A DNA stretch of 58,337 bases, the filler included, from Sanchytrium tribonematis (lineage: Eukaryota): NCBI GenBank assembly GCA_018985235.1. It is 5 parts of 5 records of this genome, joined end to end, with 100 filler letters (N's around TTAATTAATTAA, not from the genome) between each part and the next. Parts side by side here need not be neighbours in the genome. Positions count along the whole stretch, not along the records: positions 46,857 to 58,337 come from JADGIG010000258.1; 4 more parts are not named here. The stretch is one strand, 5' to 3'. The notes under the pieces are model-generated. The model was not told the DNA's origin. It made no database searches and saw nothing but the letters and a program-made list of their open reading frames with translations. Below are positions 6,768 through 55,199 of the stretch, one piece after another. Position 1 is the first letter of the stretch; every line of letters starts with the position of its first letter. The translations under genes and the position numbers were made by a program.

Positions 6768-6793
6768 GCCTCGCTAATGACCCAATATATTTC

Positions 6794-11672: not shown

Positions 11673-11772
11673 NNNNNNNNNNNNNNNNNNNNNNNNNNNN
11701 NNNNNNNNNNNNNNNNTTAATTAATTAANNNNNNNNNNNNNNNNNNNNNNNNNNNNNNNNNNNNNNNNNNNN
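11673..11772. other. Artificial contig-joining linker N44-TTAATTAATTAA-N44
   Basis: Exactly 100 nt, six-frame stop spacer, identical in four places. Confidence 0.98.
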
Positions 11773-11774
11773 AA

Positions 11775-12770: not shown

Positions 12771-12851
12771 ATAACCTATTTATGTTTATTGTTTAAATAA
12801 ATCAATTCAAAATTAAAATGTCACATTCAAAAAGCCACCTGGTAAAACGCG

Positions 12852-14768
12852 ATGTTACTTTTAAATTTGATTTTTGGAACTTTGACAACAGAATGCAGTG
12901 CAGTGGATACTATCGCGGGATTGGTAGGGTATTCAGGTATCAACTGCTGTTCTTTAGCAGGAATTACATGTACTATTGCTGGAACTGCGCTCTTTTCTAT
13001 GAATTTTACAAATATGGGTTAACAGGGTCATTTCCGACTACTTTACCAACTGGATTAGCATCACTGACATATATAGATGTCAGTCACAATCAAATTACGA
13101 GTTCTTTACCCTCTGCGATTCCGAGTGGATGGTCGTCATTTGTGTTTTTAGATGTCAGTTTCAATAAATTGACAGGTGGGCTCCCTACTTCAGGACCAAG
13201 TAGTTTTACCACAATTCATGCAAATAAGAATTTATTATCTGGAGCACTGTCAATTTCATTGATAGCATTTACAAATATCTCCATTTCAAACAACTTTTTC
13301 ATTGGCTCGTTGCCAACCATGACTAAAGTCGTGCGACTGTATGCTGCCAACAATCGATTTACTGGGTCATTTCCAAGTACGGCTGCCATTCAAATCGTAG
13401 ATGTGACCAATAACTCATTCAGTGGCATTCCCGTGCTTCCATCCACTTGCCTCGAATTTCATGGGGGTTTCAACGCATTCACAGATATTAATTCTGCAGC
13501 TGCCACGTCACTCAGTTTTGTTAATGTTACTAGAAATGCGATTTCATTGATATCACAGTTGCCCAATTCTGTTAGAACAATAGATGTCTCGTATAACGTA
13601 TTGCTCAAATTATTTTTGTTGCCACTTTCCATCAACACATTTATTGCCAATAACAACGCAATGACGGGTCAAATGTTAGCCTATATTCTGAGTATTTATT
13701 CAAATATGGCGCATGTCGATATATCCAATAATTTATTGAGTGGTTCATTTCCTATTTTCATCAAAAGTCTGGTTTACATGGATTTCTCATTCATTTTCTG
13801 GTAATCTTTCTGCTTTGTCACCCATTTTAAAGTATTTAGACGTGTCAATGAATCAATTGAATGGATCTATGCCTGTTTTACCATCTACATTGACTTATTT
13901 TAATGCGTCTCATGATTTATTCACAGGCAATTTAACAATTCCCGCGAATATTGCCACTGTGGATGTCAGTTTCAATACATTCAATGGCACATTAAATGTG
14001 ACTGGTGCTACGACATATTTAGATGCATCCAACAATCAATTTACATCTATTTCCATCAAATATCCAAATCAATATCCAAATCAATTGACATTTTGTAATC
14101 TGACAAATAATCCCAAACTCGGGGCATCTCAGTCAAATTTGAATGCGTGTATTTTCAATACCAGTCAACCTTTGGTAAATCCATTGGTTACTAGCATCCC
14201 AAACAATGCAGGAATGATTAATTTCATAAGTACTATATCCAATGCGGGAACCCAATCTATCCAAATTATTTCAAAATATTCCTCGACTGGTGATTTTACT
14301 GCATCTACATCCATACTTGACAATCCAACAACCATGTTCCAGTCAGCTCCAACATCTTCCACATCTTTCACATCCCAATCCACCAGTATTCTCCATGATT
14401 TACTCTCAAATTCAACAAACACTTCCCAATTTTATCAAATCCCTCAATCTCTACAACCCGATTCCATCCAACCAATAGATAAATCAATATTAACAAGAAT
14501 CATCCATAAATCCACTATTTCACCCATTTCATTCCAAAATTCAACCAAATTACTCTCTCACTCTCAAACTACATCCACTTATATTTCATCCACAATACCC
14601 ATTAAATTAGCTCATTTATCACCCAACACATCCCATTATATAGTCAATATTTCCCATTATTTCAGAATATTTGTCAATTTCATATTATTCATATTTGTAA
14701 TTCACAAGACACCCAAAAACTATTTTAAAAGAAAAAAGGAAGCTACCAGTCATTTTTATGAGAATTAA
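12852..14768 (+). pseudogene. LRR receptor-like protein B with two frameshifts
   Basis: Start MLLLNLIFGTL at 12852 matches the paralogue at 41246. One T is missing near 13020 (GGTTAACA vs paralogue GGTTTAACA); a second shift near 13790 fits a 5-nt loss in D-F-S-[F-N]-S-F-S-G. Neither break has a frame-restoring GT-AG. Confidence 0.8.
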
Positions 14769-14780
14769 TCAATAAAATAT

Positions 14781-15563
14781 TTATTCAATTTCAGGCAAAC
14801 ATCTAAATTCCAATGATTCTCTTGGTGTTTCGTCCTCATTAATCTTAATACCTGCATGTGCTACTTTTGATGATTCGAATAACAAGACATCTCCAGCTAC
14901 CAATTTGTAATAATATGCGTCATAATCTCCGCCATTCAAACTCACAAAACCATTAAAATCTGTTTCAAGCTTTCCTTTAGGGTCTAAAATAAACGCCAAT
15001 GGATAATTTTTAGCATCATTTAATTTAATCCAGACATTGAACCACTGTTGATCTCTCAACTTTTCCCAGTATTTTATTTTTTGAGTACAATCATTGAAAC
15101 CATATCTTGGAAATGGATGTTTATATGGTCGCGTACCTTTATCCAAGTGAAACAATGTAGATGGTCCATGCCCAATAAATCTATACAATGCATCTACACA
15201 CTTGACTTTTAGATTAAACTGCTTTAAATACAGATCCTCTGCCATTTCGTACAACACCAAATTTGTTTGTTCCGTCAATCTATTAACATCATAAGTAGTA
15301 CCGTCATCTCCATTTTTCGTTTCCATGGTCGCCTTTAGATTCTGTTTTACTGCATCTAATATAGAGTTTAATATTTTAAGTTTAGTCACACCATGTCTAT
15401 TAAAATCAAGTGAATTATCAGGACATTCACGTAATTGTAGACAATACTCCTCAGGGTCTCTCCCATCATACTTATGGTTAACTGGAAAGGGTTGATCACA
15501 TTTTGAATTTGCTTCATCAATGGCATCGTTGCCAAATACAAATAATGCAAATGGAATCATCAT
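14781..15563 (-). CDS. CmcJ/NvfI/AsaB-like Fe(II)/2-oxoglutarate-type oxygenase with short hydrophobic N-terminus
   Basis: FHLD (HxD), FNVWIKL...YPLAF, YYY...GDVLLF, AHAG and PRESLEFRCL match the family pattern NVWRPL/PLA/WYY/H/PRESIEVR. Confidence 0.65.
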   Translation of the reverse strand: MMIPFALFVFGNDAIDEANSKCDQPFPVNHKYDGRDPEEYCLQLRECPDNSLDFNRHGVTKLKILNSILDAVKQNLKATMETKNGDDGTTYDVNRLTEQTNLVLYEMAEDLYLKQFNLKVKCVDALYRFIGHGPSTLFHLDKGTRPYKHPFPRYGFNDCTQKIKYWEKLRDQQWFNVWIKLNDAKNYPLAFILDPKGKLETDFNGFVSLNGGDYDAYYYKLVAGDVLLFESSKVAHAGIKINEDETPRESLEFRCLPEIE

Positions 15564-16007
15564 TGTCTTTTTTGGGAGAGTTCTCTGTGAAATAGATTTC
15601 AAGGGGTCATTGTAATATTAATAAGCCAATCATTCTTTTGTACTCACCCCGTGTCATTATGGGGTCAACAACGATGCCTTTTTGACATACTCGGAGATGT
15701 GATTAAAATTGTTATGTTAATTTTTACAAAATACAATTTACCACGAATGGATTGATTCATATAAACACAGATGTTTGCATGTTCTGTAAACCCACTTGCA
15801 TTTCTGAGAGAGGTAAACTAATTCCCAAATCAAAACATAAAAAGACAACAGTCCCTATTCAAAAATAATTTACACATCTCTCATTAGCGCATTTGCAACA
15901 AAACATTGATTTAAAAAAGAATTCATAACAAAAATTGAGTAGAGATTGAAATAAATCGGCTCTAAAAACCATGTCATTTTAATTTTAAAAATTACCCACT
16001 AAACGCG

Positions 16008-17951
16008 ATGCTCGTCATTTCTTTAGTTTATTCGACCATTGCTTCTGAATGCACTGCATTGGGATCTTTAGCAACTAGTCTAGGTGTATCAGGATACGAT
16101 ATTCCAACATGCTGCACTTTAAAAGGGATTTCGTGTAATATTGGTAATACGTCTATTACAAGCATCCAATTCAGTAGAATGGGCCTTAATGGATCATTTC
16201 CAGGGGCATTCCCATCTAATCTACCTTCTTTAACCACCCTCAATGTCAGTCATAATTTGATTTATGGATTTATACCAAATACGATTCCATCATATTGGGC
16301 CGTGTTTACAAGTTTAGATGTGAGTTATAATCGATTATCAGGTCCATTGCCCTACAATGTCCCGATTTCCATGTCGGTATTACTCGCAAATGACAATTTA
16401 TTGAGTGGAATGATCATTTCTTTAGATTGTAAAACAACCAATGTAGCCAACAATCATTTTAGCGGACAGTTACCACCCATGTCCAATGTTATCAAGTTTT
16501 ATGGTGCGAATAACTTTTTTAGTGGATCATTGCCAGCCATCACAAATGTTCAAATATTGGATGTGAGAAATAATCAGTTGGTTGGTTCTATCGGAATTAA
16601 CAATTTGAATATGCAAATAGATGTATCCATGAATCGATTGACTGGAATCTCTTTTATCAGTCCAAATGGCGCATATCAACTGAATTCATTGAATGTTTCA
16701 AAAAACATGATTTCAAATATGGCTTTGGTGCCAAATAACGTCAAAATTTTAGATGTATCGTATAATTTATTGACCAAAGTATTTACATTGCCAGGAAATA
16801 TCACCACATTTATTGCCAATAATAATGTATTTTCTGGTAGTTTGATTTCTACCGTATTCTTGTCTTTAAAATCAATCAATTATTTGGATGTATCTAACAA
16901 TCTATTCAATGGGTCATTTCCGAATATCCCATCCACCATCACGTATTTGGATATCTCTAATAATTCCTTTTCTGGTGATTTCCCAGTGCTTCCACTCAAT
17001 TTACAATATTTAGATGTTTCTACAAATCTATTGAGAGGGTTGCCCAAATTGCCATCCACATTGACTTATTTGAATGCGTCTCATGATTTGTTGAGTGGAT
17101 CTATTGAAATATTATCCAATGTTGCCACTGTAGATGTCAGTTTTAACGGATTTAATAGAATATTAAATGTGACTGTTGCTACAACTTATTTAGATGCATC
17201 TAATAATCAGTTTACGTCTATTTTCGTTAAAAATGCAACTCAATTGACATTTTGTAATTTAACAAATAATCCCAAACTCGGAGGAGATTTCTCAAATTTG
17301 AATGCGTGTATTTTCAATACCAGTCAACCATTACTGAATATGATCAGTACGAAAACAACCGTGACTGGTTCAGTTCAATTCAACTTTATCACATCCTCTA
17401 TTCAAATTGCCATTTCTTCCACGACTCAAATATCTGTCAAATCTGTCAAATTTACAGCCACCAACACATTCACAACTTCAACAGTGACTAGTCTATTATA
17501 TAAAATGTCAAGTACCAATACCATTGCTATTATTCCATTACAGACATCCATCATAACTGAATCATCAGATTTATCTACAAATCAATTCATCTCAGAAATC
17601 ATCTCAGAAATCAACTCAGAAATCAACCCATCTGCCATTTTACAAGATATCAAAATCATTAAAACAAGAATCATTTATAAAACATCCATTCCCATGGCCA
17701 TACCATCCAATCTATTTCAATCTACCCCATTTACCACTAAATTAACAAATTCAAGTGTATTCACTATTTCCACAATTCCCATCAAACCAAGTCAATTCAT
17801 TCCCAACCTCTCCCAATCCTCATTCAATGCATTTATGATTATTAAAATGGCATGTGATGTGATTTTATTACTGGTGATTTTAAAGAAAGTACCCAAACAT
17901 TTATTGATGAAAAAGAAAGTAGCGAGTAGTAAATTTGATACTTGGAAATAA
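16008..17951 (+). CDS. LRR receptor-like protein C (intact): signal peptide, Cys cap, LRRs, Ser/Thr stalk, TM
   Basis: MLVISLVYST signal; C..CC..C cap; repeated LDVSxNxLxG; C-terminal hydrophobic helix followed by basic residues. Confidence 0.9.
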   Translation: MLVISLVYSTIASECTALGSLATSLGVSGYDIPTCCTLKGISCNIGNTSITSIQFSRMGLNGSFPGAFPSNLPSLTTLNVSHNLIYGFIPNTIPSYWAVFTSLDVSYNRLSGPLPYNVPISMSVLLANDNLLSGMIISLDCKTTNVANNHFSGQLPPMSNVIKFYGANNFFSGSLPAITNVQILDVRNNQLVGSIGINNLNMQIDVSMNRLTGISFISPNGAYQLNSLNVSKNMISNMALVPNNVKILDVSYNLLTKVFTLPGNITTFIANNNVFSGSLISTVFLSLKSINYLDVSNNLFNGSFPNIPSTITYLDISNNSFSGDFPVLPLNLQYLDVSTNLLRGLPKLPSTLTYLNASHDLLSGSIEILSNVATVDVSFNGFNRILNVTVATTYLDASNNQFTSIFVKNATQLTFCNLTNNPKLGGDFSNLNACIFNTSQPLLNMISTKTTVTGSVQFNFITSSIQIAISSTTQISVKSVKFTATNTFTTSTVTSLLYKMSSTNTIAIIPLQTSIITESSDLSTNQFISEIISEINSEINPSAILQDIKIIKTRIIYKTSIPMAIPSNLFQSTPFTTKLTNSSVFTISTIPIKPSQFIPNLSQSSFNAFMIIKMACDVILLLVILKKVPKHLLMKKKVASSKFDTWK

Positions 17952-17953
17952 AT
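17905..17953 (+). repeat. 49-bp direct repeat copy 1 (3' end of LRR gene C)
   Basis: TGATGAAAAAGAAAGTAGCGAGTAGTAAATTTGATACTTGGAAATAAAT; 47/49 identical to 20545-20593. Confidence 0.9.
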
Positions 17954-17979
17954 AAACTTCACTCTTAAATTATATTTCA

Positions 17980-20425
17980 TTAAAATTTACTTACATTTGT
18001 ATCATAAAATGATCTAGATTGCTTGGTCCTTAGATTGCGCTCGTGTTTGATTAAATACGGCAATCCAGCAATCAAAATAGAATTGACAACCAATTTCACG
18101 ATGGATAGAATACTAAAGTTGAGAAATGCATTCAATTTGTAGTTTGGTTTGATATATAGATTGGCCATCGTGGTTTGGACCAATTTGGTTGAAGATTGAT
18201 CAATTATTGTTGAGGTTGCCTCTATCAAAATCTTTGAGCTAGTGGCCTTTAAAAATACTCTTCTGGTTAAAATAGACTCTAAATAAATGAGATTTACGCT
18301 GTAACTCAAAATCATTAGAAGTTGAAGAAATCACTTGTTTCAAAAAAGAATCTGACGCATTTACACAAATTCCCAAATCTGTCCTGTTTAAAATTGGATT
18401 CTTGGTGATATCACAGTACTTTAAAGTATTTGGTGCTGCAATATATACGTTTGAGATTAAATTATTGTATAAATACAAGTATTTGTCAGAACTTAATTCC
18501 AAAAATGCAATTTCACCACTAATCTGGTTAGAATCCACCTGGTCGGGCATTCCCAATAACAATTGCAACATATTGGGTGGTAGTATAGGTAAGACGGCAT
18601 TGATTTTGTTGCTTTGTAAATATAATCTGACTAAACTAGACGGAAATGGACCAGTCATATTTGTAAATTGATTAAATGACAAATCTAAAACTTCCACACC
18701 CTCTGGAATCAATGGAATCGTGCCACTCAATAAATTATTATTTAGATAAACGTGAGTAAGGACGCCAAAACCGGGTAATTCGCCACTCAATACATTATTT
18801 TGTACATAAAAATAGTCAGCTTTTGGTGGGATATATTTTAAACTATCAAATTGATTGTAATCAACGCTATAGCAAGAAGCATTTGGCGCCTCTGGTAATG
18901 TTCCATTGAATTGGTTTCCATCTAATACGATCGTATCTGCGTTTTCAAATTTCTCTTTGATTGGACCACTAAATTGATTGTAAAAAACCACTAGATAGAA
19001 CAATTTTGAAAAGTCCGGGAGTGCACCAATGATTCTATTATATGCAAGTCCAAGAATAACTAAATTGGGCGGGGTTTGGCCAGTAATTTTCACAAAGTTA
19101 TTATCAACCAAAGAAACAACAGTGATACCTTTTGGCAATAAATCCAGATTTAATGTAATTAAAGGACCAAATTGATTCAAATAATCCCAATCAATGCGAT
19201 CAACAATCCCTTGTTTACAATTAACATTTGTCATTAGACAACAATCTTGATTCAATAATTGATAGTAATTTGGCAGTGTGACATCCAGCTGCATTGATTT
19301 TGCAAATATAGCAAGTTGTTCACACCCATATTCCCTATTTGGAGATAAATTTGACTGGCAATTAATTGGTAAAACCGAGAAATTTGAAATTGGATTATTT
19401 TCAAAATTGCAAAAATTACCAGAACCACCAACTAAACATGCAGAACCAATTATATTTACACTTGAAATATTATTGTAAGTCGCATTCAACGCGCAATTGC
19501 TACTATAAATGCTAATTTCACCATAAAAATGATTATTTGAAATGTCCAAATTTTGAACACTTTCAGCGGACAACCAATTGGACATATTGCCCGTCAAACT
19601 GTTGTGACTGATAGTCAATTCTAATATATTGGTGACATCAGGTTCAAATAACCCACTTAGTTTGTTGTGGTCTAAATGCAAAAAATTTAAATTGGGCACC
19701 AAATATGGAATCATTCCAGTCAGTAAATTATGGCTAGCAGAGAAATATGTTAGACTACCAGGGAAGTTTGTAATATTACCACTCAACAGATTGTAGTCCA
19801 ATCGGATGGATTCTGCATTTGGAATCACTCCAATTGGCCCATAAAATTGATTATGCGCAAATGACCCCCTGATGAATGTTGCTGGTAATTTATTAGTCAA
19901 TGTACCATTCAATTGATTCATTTGACAGTATAATTCAGTGGTAGTATTCATCCTTGGTAAACCTCCGATAAATTTGTTATTTGAAACATCAATAAATGTT
20001 CCATAAAAATCAAAATCCAAATACCCGCTCAATTGATTCCTAGAAATAGCCAAATAATTTAAACTAGATGGAATAGTGGTATTAAGACTACCAGTTAATC
20101 TGTTACCGGTAATATCAAAAAACGACAAAGGTAATTTGAAGTTCAAATGTCCCGTCAAATCATTATAACTCAGAATCAAACCAAGCAATTTAGATGGAAT
20201 GACTAAATCTGTCACATCACCATTTAATCCTATCCGACTCCAATTAATATCCAAAACGTTTTCATTTGAACACGAAATATAGGTGATTTCCCAGCTTAAA
20301 CAACAATCTATTTTGATATTCGCGTACAAATGTGGTGCTGAACGATCTAGACCTAATTTTTGGGCCATTTGGATGACGATTTGACAATCTGAAATGACTC
20401 CGAAAATATAATAGAATAGAATCAT
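17980..20425 (-). CDS. LRR receptor-like protein D: two capped LRR modules, one 19-nt intron, C-terminal TM
   Basis: Start MILFYYIFGVISDC at 20425; caps DCQ...DCC...C and GCE...DCC...C. Splicing 18279-18297 joins track ORFs 18239-20503 and 17980-18315 (ELQ-QSILTRR) and restores the TM. Confidence 0.85.
18279..18297 (-). other. 19-nt spliceosomal intron GTAAATCTCATTTATTTAG
   Basis: GT-AG, phase 1; removal restores the frame to the family motif SILTR and the TM anchor. Confidence 0.8.
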
Positions 20426-20544
20426 TTTTCTAGAATCAAGCCACGTTGTTTCAAAACTTTTGAGATTTATAATATCTAAAATTTTTGACAGGATATCTTG
20501 CATCTATTGTGAATTACAAAAATGAGTAGCATTGCTATTTACCC

Positions 20545-20994: not shown

Positions 20995-21765
20995 CAGCGA
21001 GTCTATAAATTATTACAACTCTAAAATTTTAGTCATTTTACTTTCCCCCTTTATATTTTGTACTTTTTGAGAGCTTTTTGGCAAAATTTTGATCAAGCAT
21101 CGCACACATTTTTTAGCAAAAAGTAAAACAAATAGAGGGAAGGGACTGACTAAAAAGTGATCCTTTACAATGAAATAAATAATTTTTATGACAACCCGCA
21201 TCAATTCTGCTTCACTCGACGATGTCACAAAAGATATTGTGTTTCCCTTAGCGCCCCTACCTGCATTTCTTCCAGTCAAGCGACCATATAGTGAGGAAGA
21301 GAAAGAAAATCAACCCAAAGTTACTCCCAAAACTAAGAAATCCAAAAAACAGGACAAACCAAGAAAATCTGGGACCCAGATGAAGAGCGACTTCTCTCTA
21401 CATCCGTTTGCTACTGAAGGTGGTTAATTGAAGAAAGCAAAAAGTCATTCTGACAAGGTCAAATTTGAAAATTATCTTGTTCAAAAATTCAAATGCAGCA
21501 AATTTGAGCAAGTTAAGGGTAAAATTCGCCTTATTTACAACAAATACAAGGCAGAACGTGTTTAAAAGTCTGGATTAATGAAAGATCTGATTGGGAATTA
21601 TTTGAATTGTGTGCGGAGGTATTTGAAGAAAACGTTATTTGGAAACCAAGTTTGCTTTTGATGGAGGTAAATTGAACCATTTGGCAGATGATGGAATGAC
21701 ACAAGTTCAAAAGGCAAAGATATATTAATTTAGATGTCCAATCAATTGCCAGATGGAGACTTGCA
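20995..21765 (+). mobile_element. Truncated, degenerate copy of the left arm of the Harbinger element (TIR plus Myb/SANT-like gene)
   Basis: High nucleotide similarity to 41603-42436, starting exactly at CAGCGAGTCTATAAATT; has a frameshift and stops. Confidence 0.88.
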
Positions 21766-21903
21766 CGTCTTTGGAAGAAGCACTTGATGAAAACAAAACC
21801 CCAAATCGTACGTAAAATGGAAATGAATAATTTTCGAACATTCACTTTCATTTTGGGTCACCGATTCATTGAATTAACATCATAAAATCTATTTCTCCCA
21901 TTC

Positions 21904-23804: not shown

Positions 23805-23952
23805 TTAAAAGTTTTATTCATTCAAACTACTGTACTGCATTTTGAAATGTGATGAACTCGTAGTTTGGGCTTTAGCGCAGCACCTGATTTATTAATGGCT
23901 GAACGAAAGTAGTTTTGAAGCACAAGATTGCTCCAAATCTAAAGGAGTGAAA

Positions 23953-24293
23953 ATGTTTTTGGAGACCCTATATTTCGCGACATATTTGGTGCTCATCTGT
24001 CTGGGTTTTTTCGCGTTATATCAAAGCAGGTTTTATAATAATGAAACCACTGATAAATTTGTAAATGCAAAAAAACATGGAACATTTCGAGTGATGTTTT
24101 CGTTGTATTCAGCCAGTGTCGGCGCATGGGTAAGTATGCTTCTACGGACAAGATGTCATTATTTATTTCTTCGACTGGTAGTTTTACAATTGTATTTATG
24201 GTGTTGATGTTTTATGGTTTGGTAGGGTTTTTCGCAAATTGGGCAAAGCTGACGGATGAAAACACCGATCCAATTCCCCTCCCCTCAAATTAA
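23953..24293 (+). pseudogene. Internally deleted remnant of a sodium:solute symporter-like transporter
   Basis: N-terminal TM, DKFVNAK and FSLYSASVGAW, then in another frame VLMFYGLVGFFANWA; far too short for an intact SSS protein. Confidence 0.4.
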
Positions 24294-24518
24294 TATATGT
24301 TATCTTACATCAATCTATTTATCATTCTCTTAATAATCATTACACCAGTACTTATGACTTTTCAAATAAATTTATTGAAATCCATGTCAAGTAATTGAAT
24401 GCTGAGCCATTTGGTGAACAAACAGGAGTTTGGAAAGGTGCTTTAGATCTGTTTGAAGAGAAATTGAAATTGACGCAATAAAATTTTGTCCCCTATTGCC
24501 AAGTTTCTCAGACACACC

Positions 24519-28959: not shown

Positions 28960-29881
28960 ATGTCCAATTCCAGTGCTCAAAACGGTGCTCAACTATCCCT
29001 CTTTCATCCATTATTAAAGGAAGCCATCACATCAATCCAAACAGATCCAACTATTGTGGTTGATGCCGTCATCGTGGATTTTGATAACACCCAATATCAT
29101 GTCAATTACCCAGGCTCGGGCGAATTAGTATTTAGCATGATGTTAAATGGATTTACTTATATCAAACAATTTGTTAATTTATCTGAATACAAAACAATGG
29201 AAACAGAAGCAAATTATTCTTTCACTATTGGAGTTAAGAAAGAACAATTACAAAACATACCTCAATTAAAAATGAACTTACTGGGCCAAGTAGCATTACA
29301 CCACTATGAAAAAGGTACCTCTATTATTTATCCAACTCAAAATAACTTTTTAAACATGCAAAACAATCAAGTGAACATTTCCCAATATCCTGGTGAATTT
29401 GTACTTTTGAAAGGGGAGAAAGAGAGATTATCAATTGTATTCAAGATTGTATTTGACGATGGAAATGATGATGGAGTTGCTAAATTATTCATTCAAGAAT
29501 TGATAGATGCCCGTAAATTGGTTGGTCTTCAAGGTACCCCACAAGTTTTGTACAACAAAGAAATCCCATTGGAGCTAAAACCATACGCAAGTGGTGCTTC
29601 TTCTCAAGCTACTGGTATTTATTTTTAATTTAGGATATTCCTCATATGTCACATTTAGTGTATTCCCTCAACACATTCAAAAAAACAAAGTAGAACAACT
29701 TGCTAAACTCTTGATGTTTAGAAATTATTTGCAATATCATATTAAATGCTCTAAAGCATATTTACATACTCGAATGAGATCAAAGGTAGGTGACTGGCTA
29801 AAAGTTTTAAATCGTGCTAAATTGGAGACTGCTGCATCTGATGTGCGTGTCACAGCCAGTGGAAAAACCTTTCGAAAATAA
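28960..29881 (+). CDS. ARPC2: Arp2/3 complex subunit 2 (p34-Arc/Arc35), two exons
   Basis: DFDNTQYH, FIQELIDAR, PQVLY; after the 19-nt intron YVTF, FRNYLQYHIKCSKAYLHTRMR, VLNRAK, TASGKTF. Confidence 0.95.
29615..29633 (+). other. 19-nt spliceosomal intron GTATTTATTTTTAATTTAG
   Basis: Contains the in-frame TAA that ends the first ORF; removal gives ACT G|GA TAT (T-G-Y) and a full-length conserved ARPC2. Confidence 0.9.
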
Positions 29882-40447: not shown

Positions 40448-41011
40448 CTATTCTTTCAATGGGAAGTCTCCAATTAAATACTACAGCATGTTGCACAAAC
40501 AACTCCATCCAATTTCACAATCCAATCAAATCTGTAAAATCCAGTCACATGCGTCTCCTGTGTATTGATCACACGGATGAAGCTGAAGCTATAAAATATT
40601 ATGAGATTGTTGTGTATAATTTGAAGTCGTTGACATAGATATTTATTCGGGGATGTCCCGTTTATATGTGTTTCGGTCTTTTAATTGATTGGTTCCCTTA
40701 TATATCACAAGTCTTTGTAATATATAAGAGCCAATCAATAATCTCTCAAATCCCCTCGTGACCCCTCGTGACCCCCCTTGGGTCTACAGGGTCAAAACTG
40801 CTCCCGTCGGAGTATGTCTTGCAACAGAGATTGCTTTAGAATTGGGAGATACAGATGCTAAAGATCAAATTGATAAGATACAAAATGCATCAAACACTAA
40901 CTGCATCCTCCAATAAATACATCTATTATTTATTTGTGGACGAGTTCGAGACATTAATAGATTCTGGGGTCTATTGGTATATGTGGACGGTAGAGAGTGT
41001 ATTGAAGATGA

Positions 41012-41355
41012 TATATATCAATGATGCTAATCCAGTTGGTAACCCCATAGACGGAAATGTCCCTGTTAAACCCATATTTGTAAAATTCATTGAAAGAAGC
41101 GCAGTCCCAGCATTAGTACATGTAATCCCTGCTAAAGAACAGCAATTAGAACCTGAATATCCTAACGATCCTAAACTAGTCGCGATAGTACCCACTGCAC
41201 TGCATTCTGATATCAAAGTTCCAAAAATCAAATTTAAAAGTAGCATCGCGTTTTACAAGGTGGCTTTTTGAATGGGACATTTTAATTTTGAGTTGATAGA
41301 GTATAGTTAAAACTTTAAACAATAATAAGGTTATTTATTCACTTATCATTTGGCC
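41012..41355 (-). pseudogene. Displaced fragment of the LRR cluster (last codons of a gene A-like copy, spacer, 5' end of a gene B-like copy)
   Basis: Reverse complement aligns with 12750-13075; ORF MLLLNLIFGTLISECSAVG... breaks off after the first LRR. Confidence 0.85.
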
Positions 41356-41795
41356 TTTTTTTTTACTGAATTCGAACAGCGGCTATTTATTAAAATAACA
41401 TTTCAAAGCGATTAATCAAGCTGTTTGAAATCATGTTTTGTGACAGAGACACCGTGGTCTTTGATACGTTTATGAGTATTTAAATGGCTAATCATACCGT
41501 ATCTGCGATCACAACCTGAAGTTAAAGTACTCTGGGTTGGTTGGAATGTAAGTAAATCGAGATGGCATTATTACACAGATTTAATGACTGTCGCCTTTAT
41601 ATCAGCGAGTCTATAAATTATTACAACTCTAAAATTTTAGTCATTTTACTTTTTCCCCTCATATTTTGCACTTTTTGAGAGCTTTTTGGCAATAATTTGA
41701 TCAAGTATCGCACACATTTTTTAACAAAAAGTAAAACAAATAGAGGCAAGGGACTGACTAAAAAGTGATTCTTTACAATGAAATAAATAATTTTT

Positions 41796-42686
41796 ATGAC
41801 AACCCGCATCAATTCTGCTTCACTCGAAGATGTCACAAAAGAAATTTTATTTCCCTTAGCGCCCCTACCTGCATTAATTCCAGTTAAGCGACCATATAGT
41901 GAGGAAGAGAAAGAAAATCAACCCAAAGCTACTCCCAAAACTAAGAAATCCAAAAAACAAGACAAACCAAGAAAGATCTGGGACCCAGATGAAGAGCGAT
42001 TGCTTTTACAACTGCTTGCTACTGAAGGTGGTCGATTGAAGAAAGCAAAAAGTCATTCTGACAAAGTCAAATTTGAAAATTATCTTGTTCAGAAATTCAA
42101 ATGCAGCAAATTTGAGCAAGTTAATCATATAATGTGGCAATAAAATTGAGCTCTAGTGGAAGAGCGACGGTTATAGCCAAATATTTTAAAAAATGAGTCT
42201 GGTTTCGAATAAATACAAGGCAGAACGTGTTCAAAAGTCTGGATTAAATGAAAGATCTGATTGGGAATTATTTGAGTTGTGTGCGGAGGTATTTGAAGGA
42301 AAGCGTGATTTGGAAACCAAGTTTGCTGTTGATGGAGGTAATTTGAACCATTTGGCAGATGATGGAATGACACAAGTTCAAAAGGCAAAGATATATTAAT
42401 TTAGATGTCCAATCAATTGCCAATTGGAGACTTGCAAATTGAAGAATTGGAAAATCAGCCAATGGATGAGCCCCCCAAAGTTGTTAAAGTGACTCCCAAA
42501 GTCAAAAAAGAAGGAAATGGTGTTAGAAAAGCAAGATTAAGCGATATTATTCAAGTTCAATTGGAAGAAACTGGTAAACAATTGAAGGAAACAACAGAGA
42601 CCACAAATCATTTGGTAAGATTGTTGATGAATGAACTTTGTTCAAGTGCCCAACCAAATGCAATTGATGGAAATTCTTTGCAATAA
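41796..42686 (+). pseudogene. Harbinger Myb/SANT-like DNA-binding protein gene, interrupted
   Basis: RKIWDPDEERLLLQLL...WELFELCAEVF. Segment 42125-42210 replaces the 25 nt that encode KGKIRLIYN in the 21.5-kb copy. Candidate 20-nt GC-AG intron at 42385-42404. Confidence 0.75.
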
Positions 42687-42720: not shown

Positions 42721-44113
42721 TCATTCTCCATTGATATTAATTAATCCATTAAATTCATCTGTCATCCGATGTAAATTAGCATTTGTTGGTCTTGGTACTA
42801 CTGTAGGCATTGCATTTCTAATCATATCCCGCTTGTATTCTCCCAGTGCCAATTCTTGAAAATCATGCTCTTCATTAAAAATTGGACAATCTCTTAATGC
42901 ATCTATTTGTCTCAATATACGTGCAATGCGAGTCGGTAATCTTGAATACGACCATGCTGTTCCCATTAGTTCCAATATGTAATTAGGATTGTTGTCAATT
43001 TGATAATTGTGAAGCATAAAGCAACACAAAATCAACTTCACGTACAATTCAATTTTGTATTCAGTCCCAATTACTAATATATAATATCTTCTTTGTAAAA
43101 TGCCAAATATTCTCTCTACAATTTGCCTCACACTTGAAAATATACGATTAAATTGTAATTTGGATTGTTCTGTTTCAGAGCATCTCAATATATCCTCTGC
43201 TTGATATGGTGTTATCAAATACTCTCTCAAATGGTATCCATTATCACCCATAAGCATATATGATTTATCAAATCTCGTAAATATAGTTAAAAGAAATTGC
43301 TTAAAATTTGAAAATGCAAACATACTGGCGTCATTAACGGATCCGGGAAATCCAACATCTATAGAAACAATGCGCATTTGCGCATCCACAACAACTTGAC
43401 CTGCCATTGAACGAAATCCTTTTCTGTTATAGAAGGGACTGGGATTTGTTTCGCGAGGGATTTTGCGAATTGGAAAATGTGTGCCGTCTACTACAAAAGG
43501 AATACCATCTAGCCCTGACAAATAGTAAACAATTTCTGCATTATTTCTTAAGTATTCTTCATTGATTCTATCCAAAGAGAAATTGTCGCGCAACAAAGAT
43601 ATCAATAAATTGCAGAAAATGTGGATTGACGCTCTTGCAGTTTCTTTACAGCAGCCATACATGTGCTTTAAAGAATTTAAACATTCTCCTCTAGTGGGTT
43701 GACGCTCTTGCAGTTTCTTTACAGCAGCCATACATGTGCTTTAAAGAATTTAAACATTCTCCTCTAGCAAGATATCTTAAAAAAATACCCAGTTTCCATT
43801 CAAATAAATGATTTGGTCTACCAACATTGTGAAGGGGCCAAATTTGGGTGTAAATTTGATGCAAGTTCTGTGATAGCTGATTGAATGTGTCTATTGACAT
43901 TCTGAAAAAGTTGCTAAACTCACCTGGACCATATTGTTGATAAAATTGGGTTGGGATCTTTGTTGGAATCCATTCTATTTTGGGTCCAATATACCGCAAA
44001 TTGTAGCGCAAGTAGCAGTTAAACAATAAAATCTTGTATTGTTGCAGCATCAAATTATTGCGATTCATTATAATAAGCAAAGTAAGCAGGATTTGTCTTC
44101 TAGTTAGAGTCAT
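42721..44113 (-). pseudogene. Harbinger/HARBI1-type DDE transposase, frameshifted by a 73-bp tandem duplication
   Basis: VVDGTHFPI, YNRKG, FPGSVND, LMGDNGY, RQIVERIFGIL; deleting one repeat copy yields a single 439-aa ORF. Confidence 0.93.
43621..43766. repeat. 73-bp tandem duplication (2 copies, 1 mismatch)
   Basis: 43621-43693 and 43694-43766. Confidence 0.95.
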
Positions 44114-47134: not shown

Positions 47135-47470
47135 CTAGATAGTAGAACTTGGATTAGTATAACAATGGTTAATATTACTTTTAATTTGTTGCCTTTTATC
47201 CTTATCGTCCACAAGATATAGTAAAATCGTTTTGGACTCACAATAGGGTCCACTTATATTTAATTCCTTCGATGAAATAATCTCTGTTAATAAAACATCT
47301 AGTGTGATAAATTTGGTTGGTACTGTAAGATATACTACCCAATCTTTAAAAACCTTTTTCCATTTCATGTCAAATAAATCTTTATCGCTTTCCGTTTCTA
47401 TCAGTGTGTACGTATGTTTGTCTGTTTCTATTATCAATAAAGCCATTAAAAGTGTAAAGTATAGCATCAT
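47135..47470 (-). CDS. Small putative secreted protein, paralogue of 40112-40447
   Basis: MMLYFTLLMA leader; shared motifs listed under the paralogue. Confidence 0.6.
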   Translation of the reverse strand: MMLYFTLLMALLIIETDKHTYTLIETESDKDLFDMKWKKVFKDWVVYLTVPTKFITLDVLLTEIISSKELNISGPYCESKTILLYLVDDKDKRQQIKSNINHCYTNPSSTI

Positions 47471-47562
47471 TTCCAAATGTTTGTTCCTTTTTAATTGGGG
47501 ATCTTTGTGAACATTTTCAAATCAAAGGGGATCTCCGTGTGGTCAAAACAAATTGTACAAAC

Positions 47563-50500
47563 ATGGAAGCCATATTAATCCCAAATGCCATTGGTGCCAT
47601 TAGTAAAATCATTCCAATTATACAAAGAATTCAATTAGTCAAAGAAAACACCACACAAATTCATGAATTACATCAAAGATTGACTAGAATACACACAATA
47701 TTAAATGAATTCACATTAAATCAATATACGACAACGACTAAAGAAATAATCCATCATTTAACATGTAAACTGAATGAGATTATTGTGTATTTAGGACAAT
47801 TTGAGCAGAAATTGATTTTGAAGAAATTGATTCGTGCTGATAAATATAGTGAAAAATTTAAACAATTTAATGAGGATTTATCTAAATTGATGTGTGAATT
47901 GTCTATTTGCAATTTGATTGAATTAAAATCAAATGCAAATGACACTAAAAAGAATGATGATGAGATGAAAGGACAATTAGAAGTGATATTGAGTAGAATG
48001 GATGAATTGAAGAGAAATGGGAGTGTTGAGAATATGCACCAGCAATTAAATATGCCAATGGATCAAATGAAAGAATTGAAAGCCATGTTGAAAGAATTGC
48101 AAAAAGATGTTCAAAATGTGACTGTGAAGCAATTACAAGAAACCAACATCAAGATTAACAAACAACGCAAATCATTTGAAATTGTTTATGTGAAAGACTT
48201 GGTAGTTGAAAATGAAGAAATTGGGCGTGGATCATTTGGAATCGTCTATTTGGGAAAATGGCGTGGTTTAAAAGTGGCTATAAAGAGAATAGAAGACTGT
48301 CCATATGAAAATCCAGATACTTTGACTGTTCATTCAGATGCATTCGTCAGAAATAGAGCCATTTTAAGAGAAGTCAAGGCGTTTGAAAAATTAAACAAAT
48401 CTCCATTTATTTCTCGATTTTATGGAGTCACTTCTACCAATGGCAAATTGGGACTAGTCATAGAATATATAGACAATTGTACGTTATACAGCTGGCTATA
48501 CTTTGACAAACAATTGCCAAATGAGCATATAAATAAAATCCAACTTGGGATTGCCCAAGGTCTGGCTTTCATGCATTCTCAAGGCATTGCCCATAATGAT
48601 GTCAAATCTAATAATGTCATGTTGGATAATCTATTCCATCCGCGCATTATTGATTTGGGAATGTCGCAAATGCAAAATTCTACTATGTTATCATCAATTG
48701 GCAATATCAAGAGTATTGGGACAGATGGATGGAGAGCACCAGAGTATTGGCAAGTTAGTGAATCCAGTATCAAATTAAGAAGAGAATATCCATTTGCAGC
48801 AGATATCTTTGCATTTTCTGTTTTACTCGGAGAAATCACGACTCGTCAATTGCCGTGGTCCAAATTGGGTTCTAATGAGATTAAACAGGCCATTTTAGAT
48901 GGAATGAGACCATATTCTCAGGATGACATCCCTTTATCTTTATTCCAAGTCATGGTCAATGGATGGCATCAAAATCCAAAATATCGCCATGATATGCAAG
49001 ATATTGCCACAGAATTGGTTGATGTGGATATATCACCCATTCAGGATCTATTTATTAACAATAATGTACCCAAAGAACCAGAATCATATGATTTATCTAA
49101 TATTTATGGCCTCGATTTATACAAGAAATTCAAGGATTCTATAGAAAGTAACAAGCCTGTCTTATTTAAATACGCTTTAATGACATTAATACAATACATA
49201 GAACTAAATGAACTCAAGAATTACATTTTACAATATAAAATTGAAATTCAATCAAAGCAATTTGCAAATCACTTTGAAAATACATTTTTCATGTTGATTT
49301 TGTGTTTCTTTGAGATTGGAGATGATAGGAATAATAATGATTTATATGATTCCTTTCAAAATACTAAAAAGGAGCCCTTGTCACTCTTATTTCTCGGATT
49401 TATGACTGCAAATGGGATTGGAACCATTAAAAATATAGACAAAGCCTCAAAAATATTTAAAAAAGGGCGGAAATATAAAATAGCAGCATATTATTTTTAC
49501 TATGGGGATCAATCTCTCCGTGATGAGTATTTTTCTCAAAAATTTGCTTATAAAAATTACAAACGAGCAATTGATGGAAATTACAGTAAAGCGTACCACA
49601 GAATCGCTGAAGTACAAAATAATAGCCATTCTAGTAAAGGAAAAGAGATTCAAATGAAATATTACGATTTAGGTGCTAAATATGGATGCGCTCTGTCTTT
49701 TTTCTATTTGGGCAGAACTGCTTCAACAGAGGCTCAAAAACTAAAGTATTTAGAGATAGCTGCTAATTTGAATTGTAAAGAGGCACAGATTCAACTAGGT
49801 GATCATTATAGTGATCAAAATGAAGAACTGGCTATTAAATATTATGAAATAGCAGAATCCTGGACTGATTTGGGAAGGATGTATCTACACGGCAAAGTTG
49901 ATCATGATTTTAAGAAAGCCAGACAATATTTTGAAAAGGGAAACTCTTATTACTATTTGGGTCAAATCTATGAAGAAGGGTTAGGTGTTTCAAAAAATAT
50001 GGAAATTGCCATTGAATATTACAGTAAAGGCGAAATAGAAGAATCAATCCATTGCAGGCAAAGATTAGTTGATATTAAAATAAGCTCAATAACTTGCAAT
50101 TTACCGGATAATTTTGAATTTGATGAATTGCCTAAAACATTTGAAAATTTGACTTCTGATGATCGTAAAGCACTTGTGGATAAATTATATGGTGTTCCTC
50201 TTTTCAAATTGTTTGAAATGTCTATTAATGAATGTGTCCCTGACATTTTTGCACTTGTTTCCGCAAAATTAATTGAAACAGTGTTGATTCATGCTATTAA
50301 GGCATTTGTACGCAAAATTGATAAACATGAGTTGAAATTAAAACATTTACTTGAAAAGATATCATATAACAAATTTACGAAAGCATTTATTCATTATTTG
50401 CTTTATAAAAAAAGATTTGATGCATCTGCCAGAAAATGCCTAAAATTATTTAACCAATGCAAAGACATGCCATTATCGAATATATTCTTGTATCAGATAT

Positions 50501-51240
50501 ATTTATGGGGTATTGGAACCATTATAGACTACCGAATTAGTAAAAAATACAAAAAATATTTGGATAGATGTGTCAATTTTAATTTAGCAGCGGGAATATT
50601 TCGATATTATTCAAGTTTTACCTCCAAAGAAGCAGATAATCTAAAAAAAGCAGCAGAAGTGAAATTTGGAGAAGCCTACTACGTAGTGTCACAATATTAC
50701 GACAAAGTTAAATGTGATAAATCATTAAGATTTCAATATTTACAGGTGGCTGCATATTATGGTTCACAAAGGGGTCTTAATGATCTAGCTAATTGCTATT
50801 ATTACGGTTTAGGATGTGACAGGGATGAAACAATGGCAATTCAATATTATGAGCTTGCTGCATTATTTGCAGATTATTTGGTAGATTTTGGAAATATGGG
50901 ATATATCTATGAATGCAGAAATGATTTAAAAAGTGCATTTGATTGCTATACTAGGTCATATGAATCAAAGCAGAGTGGAGAAGAGTTAGGAAGATATTAT
51001 TTTGAAGGAATATTTGTGGAAGTTGATTATAAAAAAGCACGCAAATGCTTTTAACAATCAATTCAAAGGAATAAAATGGCTTTGGAGCGTGCGTATATGG
51101 CATATTATTATATGGGAATGATTTACGAGAATGGATTGGGTGTTTCAAAAAATAAGAGGAAATCGAAATATTATTATAGATGTGCTGGGGAGTATTCAGA
51201 GCAAGATAGGGAGAATAGGAATTTCTTCCTACTTAATTGA
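47563..51240 (+). CDS. MLKL-like N-terminal helical bundle, TKL-type protein kinase and Sel1 repeats; in-frame TAA at 51052
   Basis: N-terminus ...VKENTTQIHELHQRL...LNEI...F...LKKLIRADKY...F...L; kinase GRGSFG, VAIK, HNDVKSNN, DLG, APE; Sel1 YYLGQIYEEGLGV. The Sel1 pattern continues after the TAA to TGA 51240. Confidence 0.88.
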
Positions 51241-51280: not shown

Positions 51281-52240
51281 TTACGTTACTTTCTTGCTAG
51301 ATTGAATCATTAAAACAACCAATGTTTGATCAAATGATCCAAATGCACATAATCCTTTGATTTTATCATTATAATGAAATGTACGAATGGGTTGTTGGCT
51401 TAAATATCCCACAGAATCAATTAAATTCATTTTATGATCAAATAATTGCAATAAATGGTCATTTGACATCATAAATTGGAAAGGATTATGAGGATTGAAT
51501 GCGCATGTCCATATGGTGCATGGATGAGATGAATTGACATGGGAAATGATTTGAAATGGATTCTCGTTTGGAGGGGATGGTTTATTTTGGAAATCTATTA
51601 AATGGGCTTTACCATGGAGACATCCAATGATTAATTGATTCATTCCGATGCTTTTTGAGTCAAATGATAAGCAGCAAATACCAGAATCAAATTGATTTTT
51701 ATAAATACATGATTTTTGCAATAAATCATAGATTTTTAATAATCCATTCTCAAATCCAATTGCAATATTCCTATGATCATTTATAGAATTGCCAAATGCA
51801 CAGCACCATGGCTGAAAAGACTCATATAATTCAACAACTGGTGTATCTACTCGTAAATCATAAATTTCTACCTTTTTATTCAATCCAATAGCCACTTCAG
51901 GTGGTCCATCTTCTAATACACCACATACATCCATACATAATGCACTTCCATTTAATTTAATGGTCTTTTTTGGAAATGTCAAATCATGAATATCCCAAAC
52001 ACTCAATTTATCCTGTTCTGCAATGATTAATTCATCTCCCATACATTTTAATTGAGTTGGCATATGTGTAAAATGGATATTACCATGCAACATCTTCAAT
52101 TCTTGTTGATTTAATGCATAAATATGTAAAATACCATTTCCAGCACTAGTTTGACCCAATACAGCCAATTTAGGACTATTATGAATCCATTGTATTTGAT
52201 GTATTTGATAATTGGTTTGTTTTCTGATAAATGGCAGCAT
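51281..52240 (-). CDS. WDR92: WD40 protein WDR92/DNAAF10 (Monad), divergent
   Basis: GPPEVAIG, WCCAFGNS...IGFENGLLKIYDL, GICCLSFDSKSIGMNQL and LSQQPI...KGLCAFGSFDQTL match the WDR92 blocks in order. Confidence 0.85.
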   Translation of the reverse strand: MLPFIRKQTNYQIHQIQWIHNSPKLAVLGQTSAGNGILHIYALNQQELKMLHGNIHFTHMPTQLKCMGDELIIAEQDKLSVWDIHDLTFPKKTIKLNGSALCMDVCGVLEDGPPEVAIGLNKKVEIYDLRVDTPVVELYESFQPWCCAFGNSINDHRNIAIGFENGLLKIYDLLQKSCIYKNQFDSGICCLSFDSKSIGMNQLIIGCLHGKAHLIDFQNKPSPPNENPFQIISHVNSSHPCTIWTCAFNPHNPFQFMMSNDHLLQLFDHKMNLIDSVGYLSQQPIRTFHYNDKIKGLCAFGSFDQTLVVLMIQSSKKVT

Positions 52241-52450
52241 TTCAAATCACACAGAAAGGGATTGTGTTTCACAAATGAATTGGAGAAGCCATTTGACAGT
52301 GTCATTATTAAATTGTTCCTCGCATTTCTACAAATTCCAATGTCATTCAATGACGACATCCATCATGGCATCTGACCCACATGTGACTTCTCCAAGTTTC
52401 TAATATGCTGTCATATTCGTCATATTCAAAATCAATTGATTCTCCTTCAA

Positions 52451-54241: not shown

Positions 54242-55199
54242 TTATTGTTCATCAATTGCCATTCTGTTGATGGTTCTTCTACTTGCATTCTCAATTGCAC
54301 TTTTTAAGCCATGATCAAAGTTTCTTAGACATAAACAGGCATTGACTGTGGTTAATCCGACGATTATGAGTGACAAAACAGCTAAATAAATGAAAAATAC
54401 CAAAAAATGTCAGATAATTACGCACATTTAAATATTTCAATTCTTGAGTGGCATCGTACATTCTGACTAATTTAAACATGAAATAAGCCAGTGCTAAGAG
54501 GGTTAAAAAAATGAAGCAGATCATTAAAACCTTGTTTTCTTTTTTTAATGCTTTGGAGGCTACAAATAAGATGATGACTGTGCAAATGAGTGCAGCAATG
54601 GTCAAATACATCTCAACATCTTGGACTTGGAGGACTAGAATCATGAATTGTAAACTGAAACTCACAAAAACAAAGAAACATGCTTTTAACAGCATTAAAA
54701 AGATTTGGTATGTTCTATACATTTGCTTCATTCTTGGATCTGCTCCTATTTTCTTGTATACTTTCCAACCATATTCACAATATAGTTTAAAAGTCAAAAA
54801 TCCACTAATGACAGCAAATACGGCTAATAATACACAAATAGCAAAGAAATAGCCACTATAACTTTGCCAAATATTGGTGACTTGACTCACATCTTTGATT
54901 TGAAAGAGAGAATATCCAAAACTAGCAACATTCATGCCCACCCAAGCAAATAATTGAATGGTATTTTCATTTGCAATGGCATCCCAACTAAAATAGATTT
55001 GGAATAATTGACCAAATATAAATATAGCTAGATAGACTGGTAATCCACGCAGAGGCTCCGCTTTATTCTCTAATGAGATCTTGGGGACTAGTTGGGCTGC
55101 AATGACTATTTCAAGGATAATGATGCAGACTGCTTGTAATACTGCTGTCATTAATGCTGCTTTAGAGTAATTAGAAAGTTTGTTGGGAAAAACTTTCAT
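54242..55199 (-). CDS. UPF0658-type fungal multi-pass (Golgi) membrane protein, two exons
   Basis: ENTIQL, LYCEYGWKVYKKIGAD, Y..YQIF..LLK; after splicing 54382-54400: YLTFFAVLSLIIVGLTTVNACLCLRNFDHGLK...RMAIDEQ stop. Confidence 0.85.
54382..54400 (-). other. 19-nt spliceosomal intron GTATTTTTCATTTATTTAG
   Basis: GT-AG, phase 1; removal restores the last TM helix and the NFxxGLK motif. Confidence 0.88.

What the first reader, a model, noticed from the sequence alone, without database searches (positions are those of the whole stretch)
54382..54400. Fixed adenine six bases from the 3' splice site: candidate branch point fused to the acceptor
Seen: all three 19-nt introns and the 20-nt candidate have A at position -6 (T(T/A)ATTTAG), with no room for a separate CTRAY box and pyrimidine tract. 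Known: Stentor tiny introns have a conserved A six nt from the 3' end. Inference: convergent intron architecture in an unrelated lineage, with a lariat loop of only about 14 nt. The sample is four AT-rich introns, so chance is not excluded.
Basis: partly seen in the sequence, partly recalled or inferred. Interest (0 to 1): 0.7.

Follow-up and report, generated by a model that had tools for sequence, protein, structure and literature searches.

The report
Nineteen-base introns in sanchytrid fungi
Genes of a little-studied fungal parasite of algae carry 19-base inserts, very likely introns and shorter than any fungal intron I found reported, with an adenine six bases from their end that likely serves as the splicing branch point.

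Summary
The window is a sanchytrid fungus (nearest named homologues from Amoeboradix gromovi). 54382-54400(-) is very likely a 19-nt GT-AG intron: removal restores the conserved end of a DUF7789 protein. Two more 19-nt introns (ARPC2, an LRR gene) also have A at -6. A shared A column in three introns alone could be chance (P 0.14). Relatives give an outside test: unspliced predicted proteins read into the same introns. All 4 resolvable ones (one 19 nt; three 20 nt if the stop is TAG) have A at -6; 3 more are compatible. All 7 fit a Y-T-N-A-Y box at -9..-5, seen in 2-4% of decoys. So a degenerate branch box exists, fused to the acceptor, as in Yarrowia and Stentor. The published A. gromovi annotation lists a U2 spliceosome and Dbr1, but no Slu7 or Prp18. 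Limits: three intron sites only, no RNA data, branching unshown. My searches found no description of sanchytrid introns, and no earlier scan note on them. Known architecture, new lineage, below the 22-nt microsporidian minimum I found.

The parts
54382..54400 (-). 19-nt phase-1 GT-AG intron in the DUF7789 membrane-protein gene
   Evidence: Removal gives a 310-aa product whose last 45 residues align with the C-terminal helix of fungal homologues. P0002, P0003 and P0004 stop matching at this same site. The DNA contig is intact.
54386..54390 (-). degenerate branch box (Y-T-N-A-Y, -9..-5); predicted branch A at 54387
   Evidence: Same register in 7 of 7 resolved introns; 2-4% of decoys. Role as branch point inferred.
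54401..55193 (-). exon 1 of the DUF7789 gene
   Evidence: Pfam PF25044 weak hit; 76-80% identical to sanchytrid homologues
54242..54381 (-). exon 2 of the DUF7789 gene (with stop codon)
   Evidence: Aligns with the C-termini of full-length homologues P0005 and P0007-P0013
29615..29633 (+). 19-nt phase-1 GT-AG intron in ARPC2; predicted branch A at 29628
   Evidence: Pfam P34-Arc profile positions 28-173 and 178-242 lie in two frames. PDB matches end at residue 212 and resume at 221. The spliced product is 300 aa. P0025-P0027 are cut at the same site.
18279..18297 (-). 19-nt phase-1 GT-AG intron in an LRR surface-protein gene; predicted branch A at 18284
   Evidence: Removal adds a Ser/Thr linker, membrane helix and basic tail, as in 64 of 100 family hits. 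S. tribonematis paralogue P0044 has an insert of the same length at the same place. The DNA contig is intact. Less secure than the other two.
42385..42404 (+). weak 20-nt GC-AG candidate in a degenerate Harbinger-type Myb-like ORF (copy at 21714-21733)
   Evidence: In-frame join with the best U2 fit of all (6 of 6). A 29-nt GT-AG version fits equally well and no homologue test was possible. Not counted.

Best explanation
The 19-base insert is very likely a major-spliceosome (U2-type) intron of a sanchytrid fungus, whose adenine six bases from the 3' end likely acts as the branch point inside a degenerate branch box fused to the acceptor. Shown: the insert, GTA..TAG ends, frame restoration, the same site in relatives, and the fixed A with its Y-T-N-A-Y context. 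Inferred: U2 snRNA pairs at +9..+15 of a 19-nt intron and bulges the A at +14; step 1 makes a 14-nt loop (15 in 20-nt introns) with a 5-nt tail; the AG is set by fixed spacing from the branch, not by a pyrimidine tract. Length varies between donor and branch box, while the branch-to-AG distance stays fixed. Slu7 and Prp18, which yeast does not need at short branch-to-AG distances, may be lost.
For: Frame restoration in two conserved genes. Unspliced relatives: P0002, P0003 and P0027 cannot have 14-19-nt introns at the site by codon logic, stop at intron positions 18-20, and have an A-T-N codon just before, i.e. 20 nt with A at -6 if the stop is TAG. P0026 and P0028 agree in two frames at 1 of 15 offsets tried and fix a 19-nt intron ending A-C-N-A-A-Y-G-T-A-G, given an AG end. 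Columns over 7 introns: -9 Y 7/7, -8 T 6/7 (one unresolved), -6 A 7/7, -5 Y 7/7, while -4, -7 and -10 to -13 vary. The A follows the 3' end (+14 in 19 nt, +15 in 20 nt). Likelihood ratio for a fixed A from five tails: 43-70 (19/20-nt prior), 34-52 (18-22), 8-11 (15-30); further factors 2.4-2.9 (P0026/28) and 1.6-1.8 (P0044). In all three window introns -6 is the best or tied-best U2 register. The A. gromovi eggNOG sheet lists Prp8, SF3B1, BBP/SF1, U2AF1, a U2AF2-type protein, Prp16, Prp22, Prp17, Cwc25, Yju2/CCDC94, Isy1 and Dbr1, with no hit for Slu7 or Prp18 by name, KO or KOG. Slu7 and Prp18 are dispensable at short distances, and Prp18 is proposed as a minimum-distance ruler (PMC10158995, PMC10711555).
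Against: Only three intron sites are involved. Orthologous introns share ancestry; counting two independent sites, the outside test has chance 0.11-0.15. Relatives' introns are back-inferred from peptides, not read as DNA. Under a flat 15-30-nt prior the 20-nt length has only about 50% posterior each. U2 pairing does not single out -6 within one intron: -10 ties in the DUF7789 intron (4 vs 4) and -13 ties in ARPC2 (5 vs 5). The three window introns have T, not C, at -9, so the box is weaker than in other intron-poor fungi. The sanchytrid U2 sequence was not seen. The Slu7/Prp18 absence rests on a table that annotates about half of 7,220 intron-blind predictions in a relative, and C. merolae lacks both despite long distances.
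Confidence: 0.8

Rival explanations
1. The introns are real, but the conserved A at -6 belongs to an extended acceptor motif read by proteins (U2AF-type), and branching happens further upstream, for example at -10 (+10, a Stentor-sized loop).
For: A at -10 in 3 of 7 resolved introns, with a fourth unresolved; it ties with -6 for U2 pairing in the DUF7789 intron. A. gromovi keeps both U2AF subunits.
Against: -10 is T in ARPC2 and a pyrimidine in P0003. The bases around -6 match the branch consensus, and one intron has the yeast-like A-C-N-A-A-Y. A helix around +10 would cover +5..+11 and overlap the donor.
Confidence: 0.09
2. The introns are real, but the A at -6 is an accident of A+T-rich sequence plus shared descent of a few introns; there is no fixed branch position, as reported for chlorarachniophyte nucleomorph introns.
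For: Small sample; look-elsewhere P 0.14 on the window alone; only three sites. B. natans 18-21-nt introns have no discernible branch A (PMC6009652).
Against: Other interior columns have turned over while -9, -8, -6 and -5 have not. The register holds across 19 and 20 nt. The box occurs in 2-4% of decoys.
Confidence: 0.08
3. The inserts are not introns: the genes are broken, frameshifted or end early, or the breaks are assembly errors.
For: No RNA evidence is on hand. The window holds one frame break with no intron-like join (ZNFX1-like gene) and decayed transposons. For the LRR gene the exon-2 match to family tails is not significant (best E 0.012).
Against: ARPC2 and DUF7789 break at the same codon in four sanchytrid proteins each, counting the window's, always followed by GTA, and both downstream parts stay conserved.
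Confidence: 0.03

Closest known systems
Yarrowia lipolytica introns with constrained BP-AG distance (Irimia & Roy 2008, PMC2483917; passages)
   Same: Fungal U2 introns without a pyrimidine tract; 2 nt between branch box and AG, which puts the branch A at -6
   Different: Yarrowia introns are long (median 204 nt in their table) with a strong ACTAAC. Here 19-20 nt and a degenerate, T-rich box.
Stentor coeruleus 15-16-nt introns (Nuadthaisong et al. 2022, PMC9505925; parts 1-3 of 6)
   Same: A fixed at -6, GUA start, AU-rich, U-rich branch region, 5-nt tail, branch role inferred from sequence
   Different: Ciliate; 15-16 nt and a 10-11-nt loop. Here 19-20 nt and a 14-15-nt loop, long enough for donor and branch helices not to overlap (inference).
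Encephalitozoon cuniculi introns (PMC3629993, PMC2483917; passages)
   Same: Reduced parasite of the fungal line; very short GT-AG introns with a 3' branch motif (TAAYTT)
   Different: 22-76 nt with a strict donor. Sanchytrids are sister to Blastocladiomycota, so the shrinkage is independent. The branch-to-AG spacing there could not be checked (Lee et al. 2010 not held).
Chlorarachniophyte nucleomorph introns (PMC6009652; passages)
   Same: Same size class, 18-21 nt, AU-rich, GT-AG
   Different: Intron-dense and no discernible branch A; here intron-poor with a fixed A.
Giardia, Trichomonas and Spironucleus fused BP/3'SS introns (PMC2483917, PMC6679479; passages)
   Same: Branch box fused to the acceptor at a fixed distance; spacing shown to matter in T. 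vaginalis
   Different: 4 or more nt between box and AG, longer introns, long strict motifs.

Membership tests
U2-type spliceosomal intron | GT-AG ends whose removal restores a conserved reading frame | tested here: met
   GTA start in 10 of 10 introns seen or inferred
U2-type spliceosomal intron | Branch consensus with an A near the 3' end | tested here: met
   Y-T-N-A-Y at -9..-5 in 7 of 7 resolved introns, one position unresolved
U2-type spliceosomal intron | Major spliceosome and debranching enzyme encoded | tested here: met
   For the relative A. gromovi, from a published annotation; Dbr1 also for S. tribonematis. Not tested in the window's own genome (none held).
U2-type spliceosomal intron | Removed from mRNA through a lariat at the predicted A | not testable with these tools
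   Needs RNA and lariat reads
U2-type spliceosomal intron | Pairing with the organism's own U2 snRNA | tested here: inconclusive
   No snRNA in the window. With the canonical GUAGUA, 4-5 of 6 pairs form at -6, tied by another register in 2 of 3 introns.
Fused BP-3'SS introns of intron-poor genomes (Yarrowia/Trichomonas/Giardia pattern) | Fixed branch-to-AG distance, no pyrimidine tract | tested here: met
   Same register in 19- and 20-nt introns
Fused BP-3'SS introns of intron-poor genomes (Yarrowia/Trichomonas/Giardia pattern) | Strong WCTRAY consensus | tested here: not met
   3 of 3 window introns and P0002 have T at -9; C is shown only in P0026/28 and possible in P0003 and P0027
Fused BP-3'SS introns of intron-poor genomes (Yarrowia/Trichomonas/Giardia pattern) | Intron-poor genome | tested here: inconclusive
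   3 introns among about 35 ORFs examined, but the scans miss in-frame and UTR introns
Heterotrich (Stentor-type) tiny introns | Length 15-16 nt | tested here: not met
   19-20 nt
Heterotrich (Stentor-type) tiny introns | Invariant A at -6 | tested here: met
   against PMC9505925
Chlorarachniophyte nucleomorph introns | No discernible branch A | tested here: not met
   Fixed A found; size class 18-21 nt is met

The most novel reading that the evidence does not exclude
Sanchytriomycota have the smallest introns in Fungi, uniformly 19-20 nt across the phylum, the least length that still holds both the donor helix and a full U2 branch helix. They are cut by a spliceosome that keeps U2AF and SF1 but has lost the Slu7/Prp18 second-step ruler because the acceptor is hard-wired five bases behind the branch A. 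Published sanchytrid proteomes are then cut short at every such intron.
Probability: 0.45. Interest if true: 0.72.

Novelty: new variant of a known kind. Interest (0 to 1): 0.56.

Why it matters
It adds an independent lineage to the short list of genomes with introns of 20 nt or less, and the first fungal one that I could find. It does so with a readable branch box, which the equally short nucleomorph introns lack. Stentor, Yarrowia and sanchytrids would all sit at branch A = -6, which suggests a physical floor for the branch-to-acceptor distance; comparing Slu7/Prp18 presence across these lineages would test it. Practically, the published sanchytrid proteomes were called with an intron-blind ORF finder, and named proteins P0004, P0025 and P0044 are cut at introns, so gene-loss and domain claims for this phylum may need rechecking.

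Tried and rejected
No whole genome is held. No RNA holder was listed; this is not evidence either way. Scans for sanchytrid DNA found nothing usable: metagenomes with A2 and A4, prokaryote genomes with A4 and P0028, viral contigs with A4 and P0028; the single hit L001 is a phage gene, a false match. A frame-only GT-AG scan was too noisy to use. A codon-scored junction scan found the ARPC2 intron and the Myb candidate but missed the DUF7789 and LRR introns, so it is insensitive. The motif scan gave 32 matches; apart from the three introns and the 20-nt candidates I had no homology support for any, including the in-frame 18-mer 50570-50587. Alternative boundaries for the finding (40, 55, 76 nt) would delete conserved residues and were rejected. 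Rfam: 0 matches. Exon 2 of the LRR gene had no significant phmmer match among 100 family hits. Earlier scan notes: none for this genome or sequence, irrelevant ones, one on Neolecta. Lee et al. 2010 is not held. No fold or complex job was run, as neither bears on the question.

Full report
What the window is. It is gene-dense eukaryotic DNA, about 33% G+C, read in the standard code. The gene holding the finding has 23 homologues among 834 candidates; the top three outside the window are 76-80% identical. One is an Amoeboradix gromovi protein. ARPC2 gives the same picture (4 hits among 81 candidates), and the best LRR paralogue is from Sanchytrium tribonematis. A tree of 19 rows (P0001 and P0020-P0023 left out) groups the window with A. 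gromovi and two unnamed proteins at 100/100, sister at 95/95 to P0005, whose cluster holds a Paraphysoderma protein (its blastoclad placement is recalled). This fits the published position of Sanchytriomycota (PMC8371127). I place the window in that phylum and go no further.

The observation. 54382-54400(-) is 19 nt, GTA..TAG, with A at -6. Removing it yields a 310-aa protein whose last 45 residues align with the C-terminal helix of full-length fungal homologues (13 sequences aligned, 12 of them from the 23 hits). The three sanchytrid homologues stop matching at the same codon, and so does one chytrid model, P0006, which hints that the site is old. ARPC2 has a 19-nt insert at 29615-29633 between two halves of the Pfam domain; the spliced product is 300 aa, the length of the mammalian chain. 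The LRR gene has one at 18279-18297(-). Removal adds the membrane anchor that 64 of 100 family hits carry. Paralogue P0044 reads through an insert of equal length, with 3 of 3 changed residues in its first half and 3 of 4 later changes at third positions of the exon-2 frame. Contigs of run X1, possibly the source, span the first and third inserts without difference.

Is the A more than chance? On the window alone, weakly. Decoys have A at -6 in 30-40%, and some all-A column appears in 13.8% of shuffles. The outside test comes from relatives whose proteins were predicted without splicing and so read into the intron. P0002, P0003 and P0027 stop at intron positions 18-20. Codon logic excludes 14-19 nt, 20 nt is favoured (posterior 0.95 under an 18-22 prior, about 0.5 under 15-30), and each has an A-T-N codon before the stop, i.e. 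A at -6 if the stop is TAG. P0026 (exon-1 frame) and P0028 (exon-2 frame) are mutually consistent at 1 of 15 offsets. They fix a 19-nt ARPC2 intron ending A-C-N-A-A-Y-G-T-A-G if it ends in AG and both come from the same gene or near-identical ones, which the 32-base agreement suggests although their contigs differ in length. So 4 of 4 resolvable introns have A at -6 (chance 0.012-0.023, or 0.11-0.15 if only two sites count as independent). Three more are compatible but unresolved: P0004 and P0025 have a stop at positions 12-14, which is -8..-6 if 19 nt; P0044 has a Leu codon there. Over the 7 resolved introns, -9 is Y, -8 is T (one unresolved), -6 is A and -5 is Y, while neighbouring columns vary. 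That box is in 8 of 244, 3 of 82 and 1 of 43 decoys. It is the general branch consensus (WCTRAYN in PMC2483917; the looser human yUnAy form is recalled).

How it likely works. With the canonical U2 motif GUAGUA (reported conserved in Stentor; not seen for sanchytrids), the helix would cover +9..+15 and bulge the A at +14, with 4-5 of 6 pairs including G-U. Other registers tie in 2 of 3 introns, so conservation rather than pairing picks -6. The first step would give a 14-nt loop and a 5-nt tail; the AG is then set by spacing. If the donor pairs over +1..+6 (recalled), only two bases lie between the two helices, which may be why lengths stop at 19 (inference). The eggNOG sheet for A. gromovi (3,755 rows; supplement file 4 of PMC8371127) lists Prp8, SF3B1, BBP, U2AF1, a U2AF2-type RRM protein, Prp16, Prp22, Prp17, Cwc25, CCDC94, Isy1 and Dbr1. 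Searches for SLU7, PRP18, PRPF18, 'step II', two KO and two KOG identifiers (identifiers recalled) and SMU1 gave 0. Slu7 is not needed at 9 nt or less (PMC10158995). Prp18 and Slu7 are dispensable at short distances, and Prp18 is proposed to impose a minimum distance (PMC10711555). The fit is neat but only a lead: the table covers about half of 7,220 predictions, these proteins diverge fast, the S. tribonematis sheet was cut at 171 rows, and C. merolae lacks both despite long distances.

Comparison. The 3' design is known. Yarrowia has the same spacing in long introns, Stentor in 15-16-nt introns, and Giardia, Trichomonas and Spironucleus have fused motifs with wider spacing. The size is known from nucleomorphs (18-21 nt, no visible branch A). 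Myxozoans (median 22 nt) show A residues whose distance from the AG grows with length, unlike here. The shortest fungal-line introns I found are 22 nt in E. cuniculi. It works like a Yarrowia/Stentor-type fused intron and is a U2-type intron on the tests I could run; it fails the strong-consensus feature of the Yarrowia pattern and the length feature of the Stentor type.

Novelty. Searches 'sanchytrid'+'intron' (2 papers) and Sanchytrium/Amoeboradix/Sanchytriomycota/intron (21 listed of 23) showed no description of sanchytrid spliceosomal introns. In the two papers opened, the word occurs only in a reference title. The genome paper used TransDecoder on contigs. A fungal intron survey and a reduced-spliceosome review do not mention the group, and 'shortest introns'+fungi+'19 nt' gave nothing relevant in the listing. 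The library lacks most subscription journals, and two supplements of PMC8371127 (the main PDF and one table) plus one scanned PDF could not be read; they could mention introns.

What I saw of each paper. PMC8371127: passages, section 18, searches in supplements. PMC9505925: parts 1-3 of 6. PMC13644364: parts 1-2 of 3. PMC10459994, PMC2483917, PMC6679479, PMC6009652, PMC3629993, PMC6349667, PMC8476143, PMC10158995, PMC10711555: passages only. Lee et al. 2010: not held.

Verdict. New variant of a known kind. Confidence 0.8 that the A is the branch point, about 0.95 that the finding's insert is an intron. Interest 0.56.

Noticed in passing
window 4812-4821 (-): The ZNFX1-like helicase gene (1174-6773) changes frame just after Walker A, with no AT-rich GT/GC-AG join; it looks like one missing base.
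   Followed up: partly
window 41787-42686 (+) and about 21100-21800 (+); transposase 42721-44113 (-): Two degenerate copies of a Harbinger-type Myb-like ORF beside a DDE_Tnp_4 transposase; both copies keep a GC-AG 20-nt candidate with the same 3' box.
   Followed up: partly
window 11721-20503, 40971-41252: A cluster of LRR surface proteins with Ser/Thr linker and C-terminal membrane helix; a large family, with named members in both described sanchytrids.
   Followed up: partly
window 47458-51054 (+): A 1,198-aa protein with an MLKL-type N-terminal domain (weak, E 2e-4), a kinase and Sel1 repeats, resembling fungal MLKL-like cell-death proteins (resemblance recalled).
   Followed up: no
window 51281-52246 (-): A WD40 gene over which summed contig depth rises to 270-550, against about 100-170 nearby, with variant letters: probably several copies or alleles.
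   Followed up: no
window 23896-24295 (+): A short fragment that looks like part of a membrane-transporter gene, with a GTAAGT-type donor but no clean continuation; likely a remnant (no Pfam hit).
   Followed up: no
P0004, P0025, P0044 (public named proteins): Published sanchytrid protein models end in intron read-through, so the proteomes hold truncated proteins; read-through tails can be mined as intron data.
   Followed up: yes
PMC8371127 supplement file 4 (A. gromovi): No Slu7, Prp18 or Smu1 entry beside an otherwise broad spliceosome list.
   Followed up: partly
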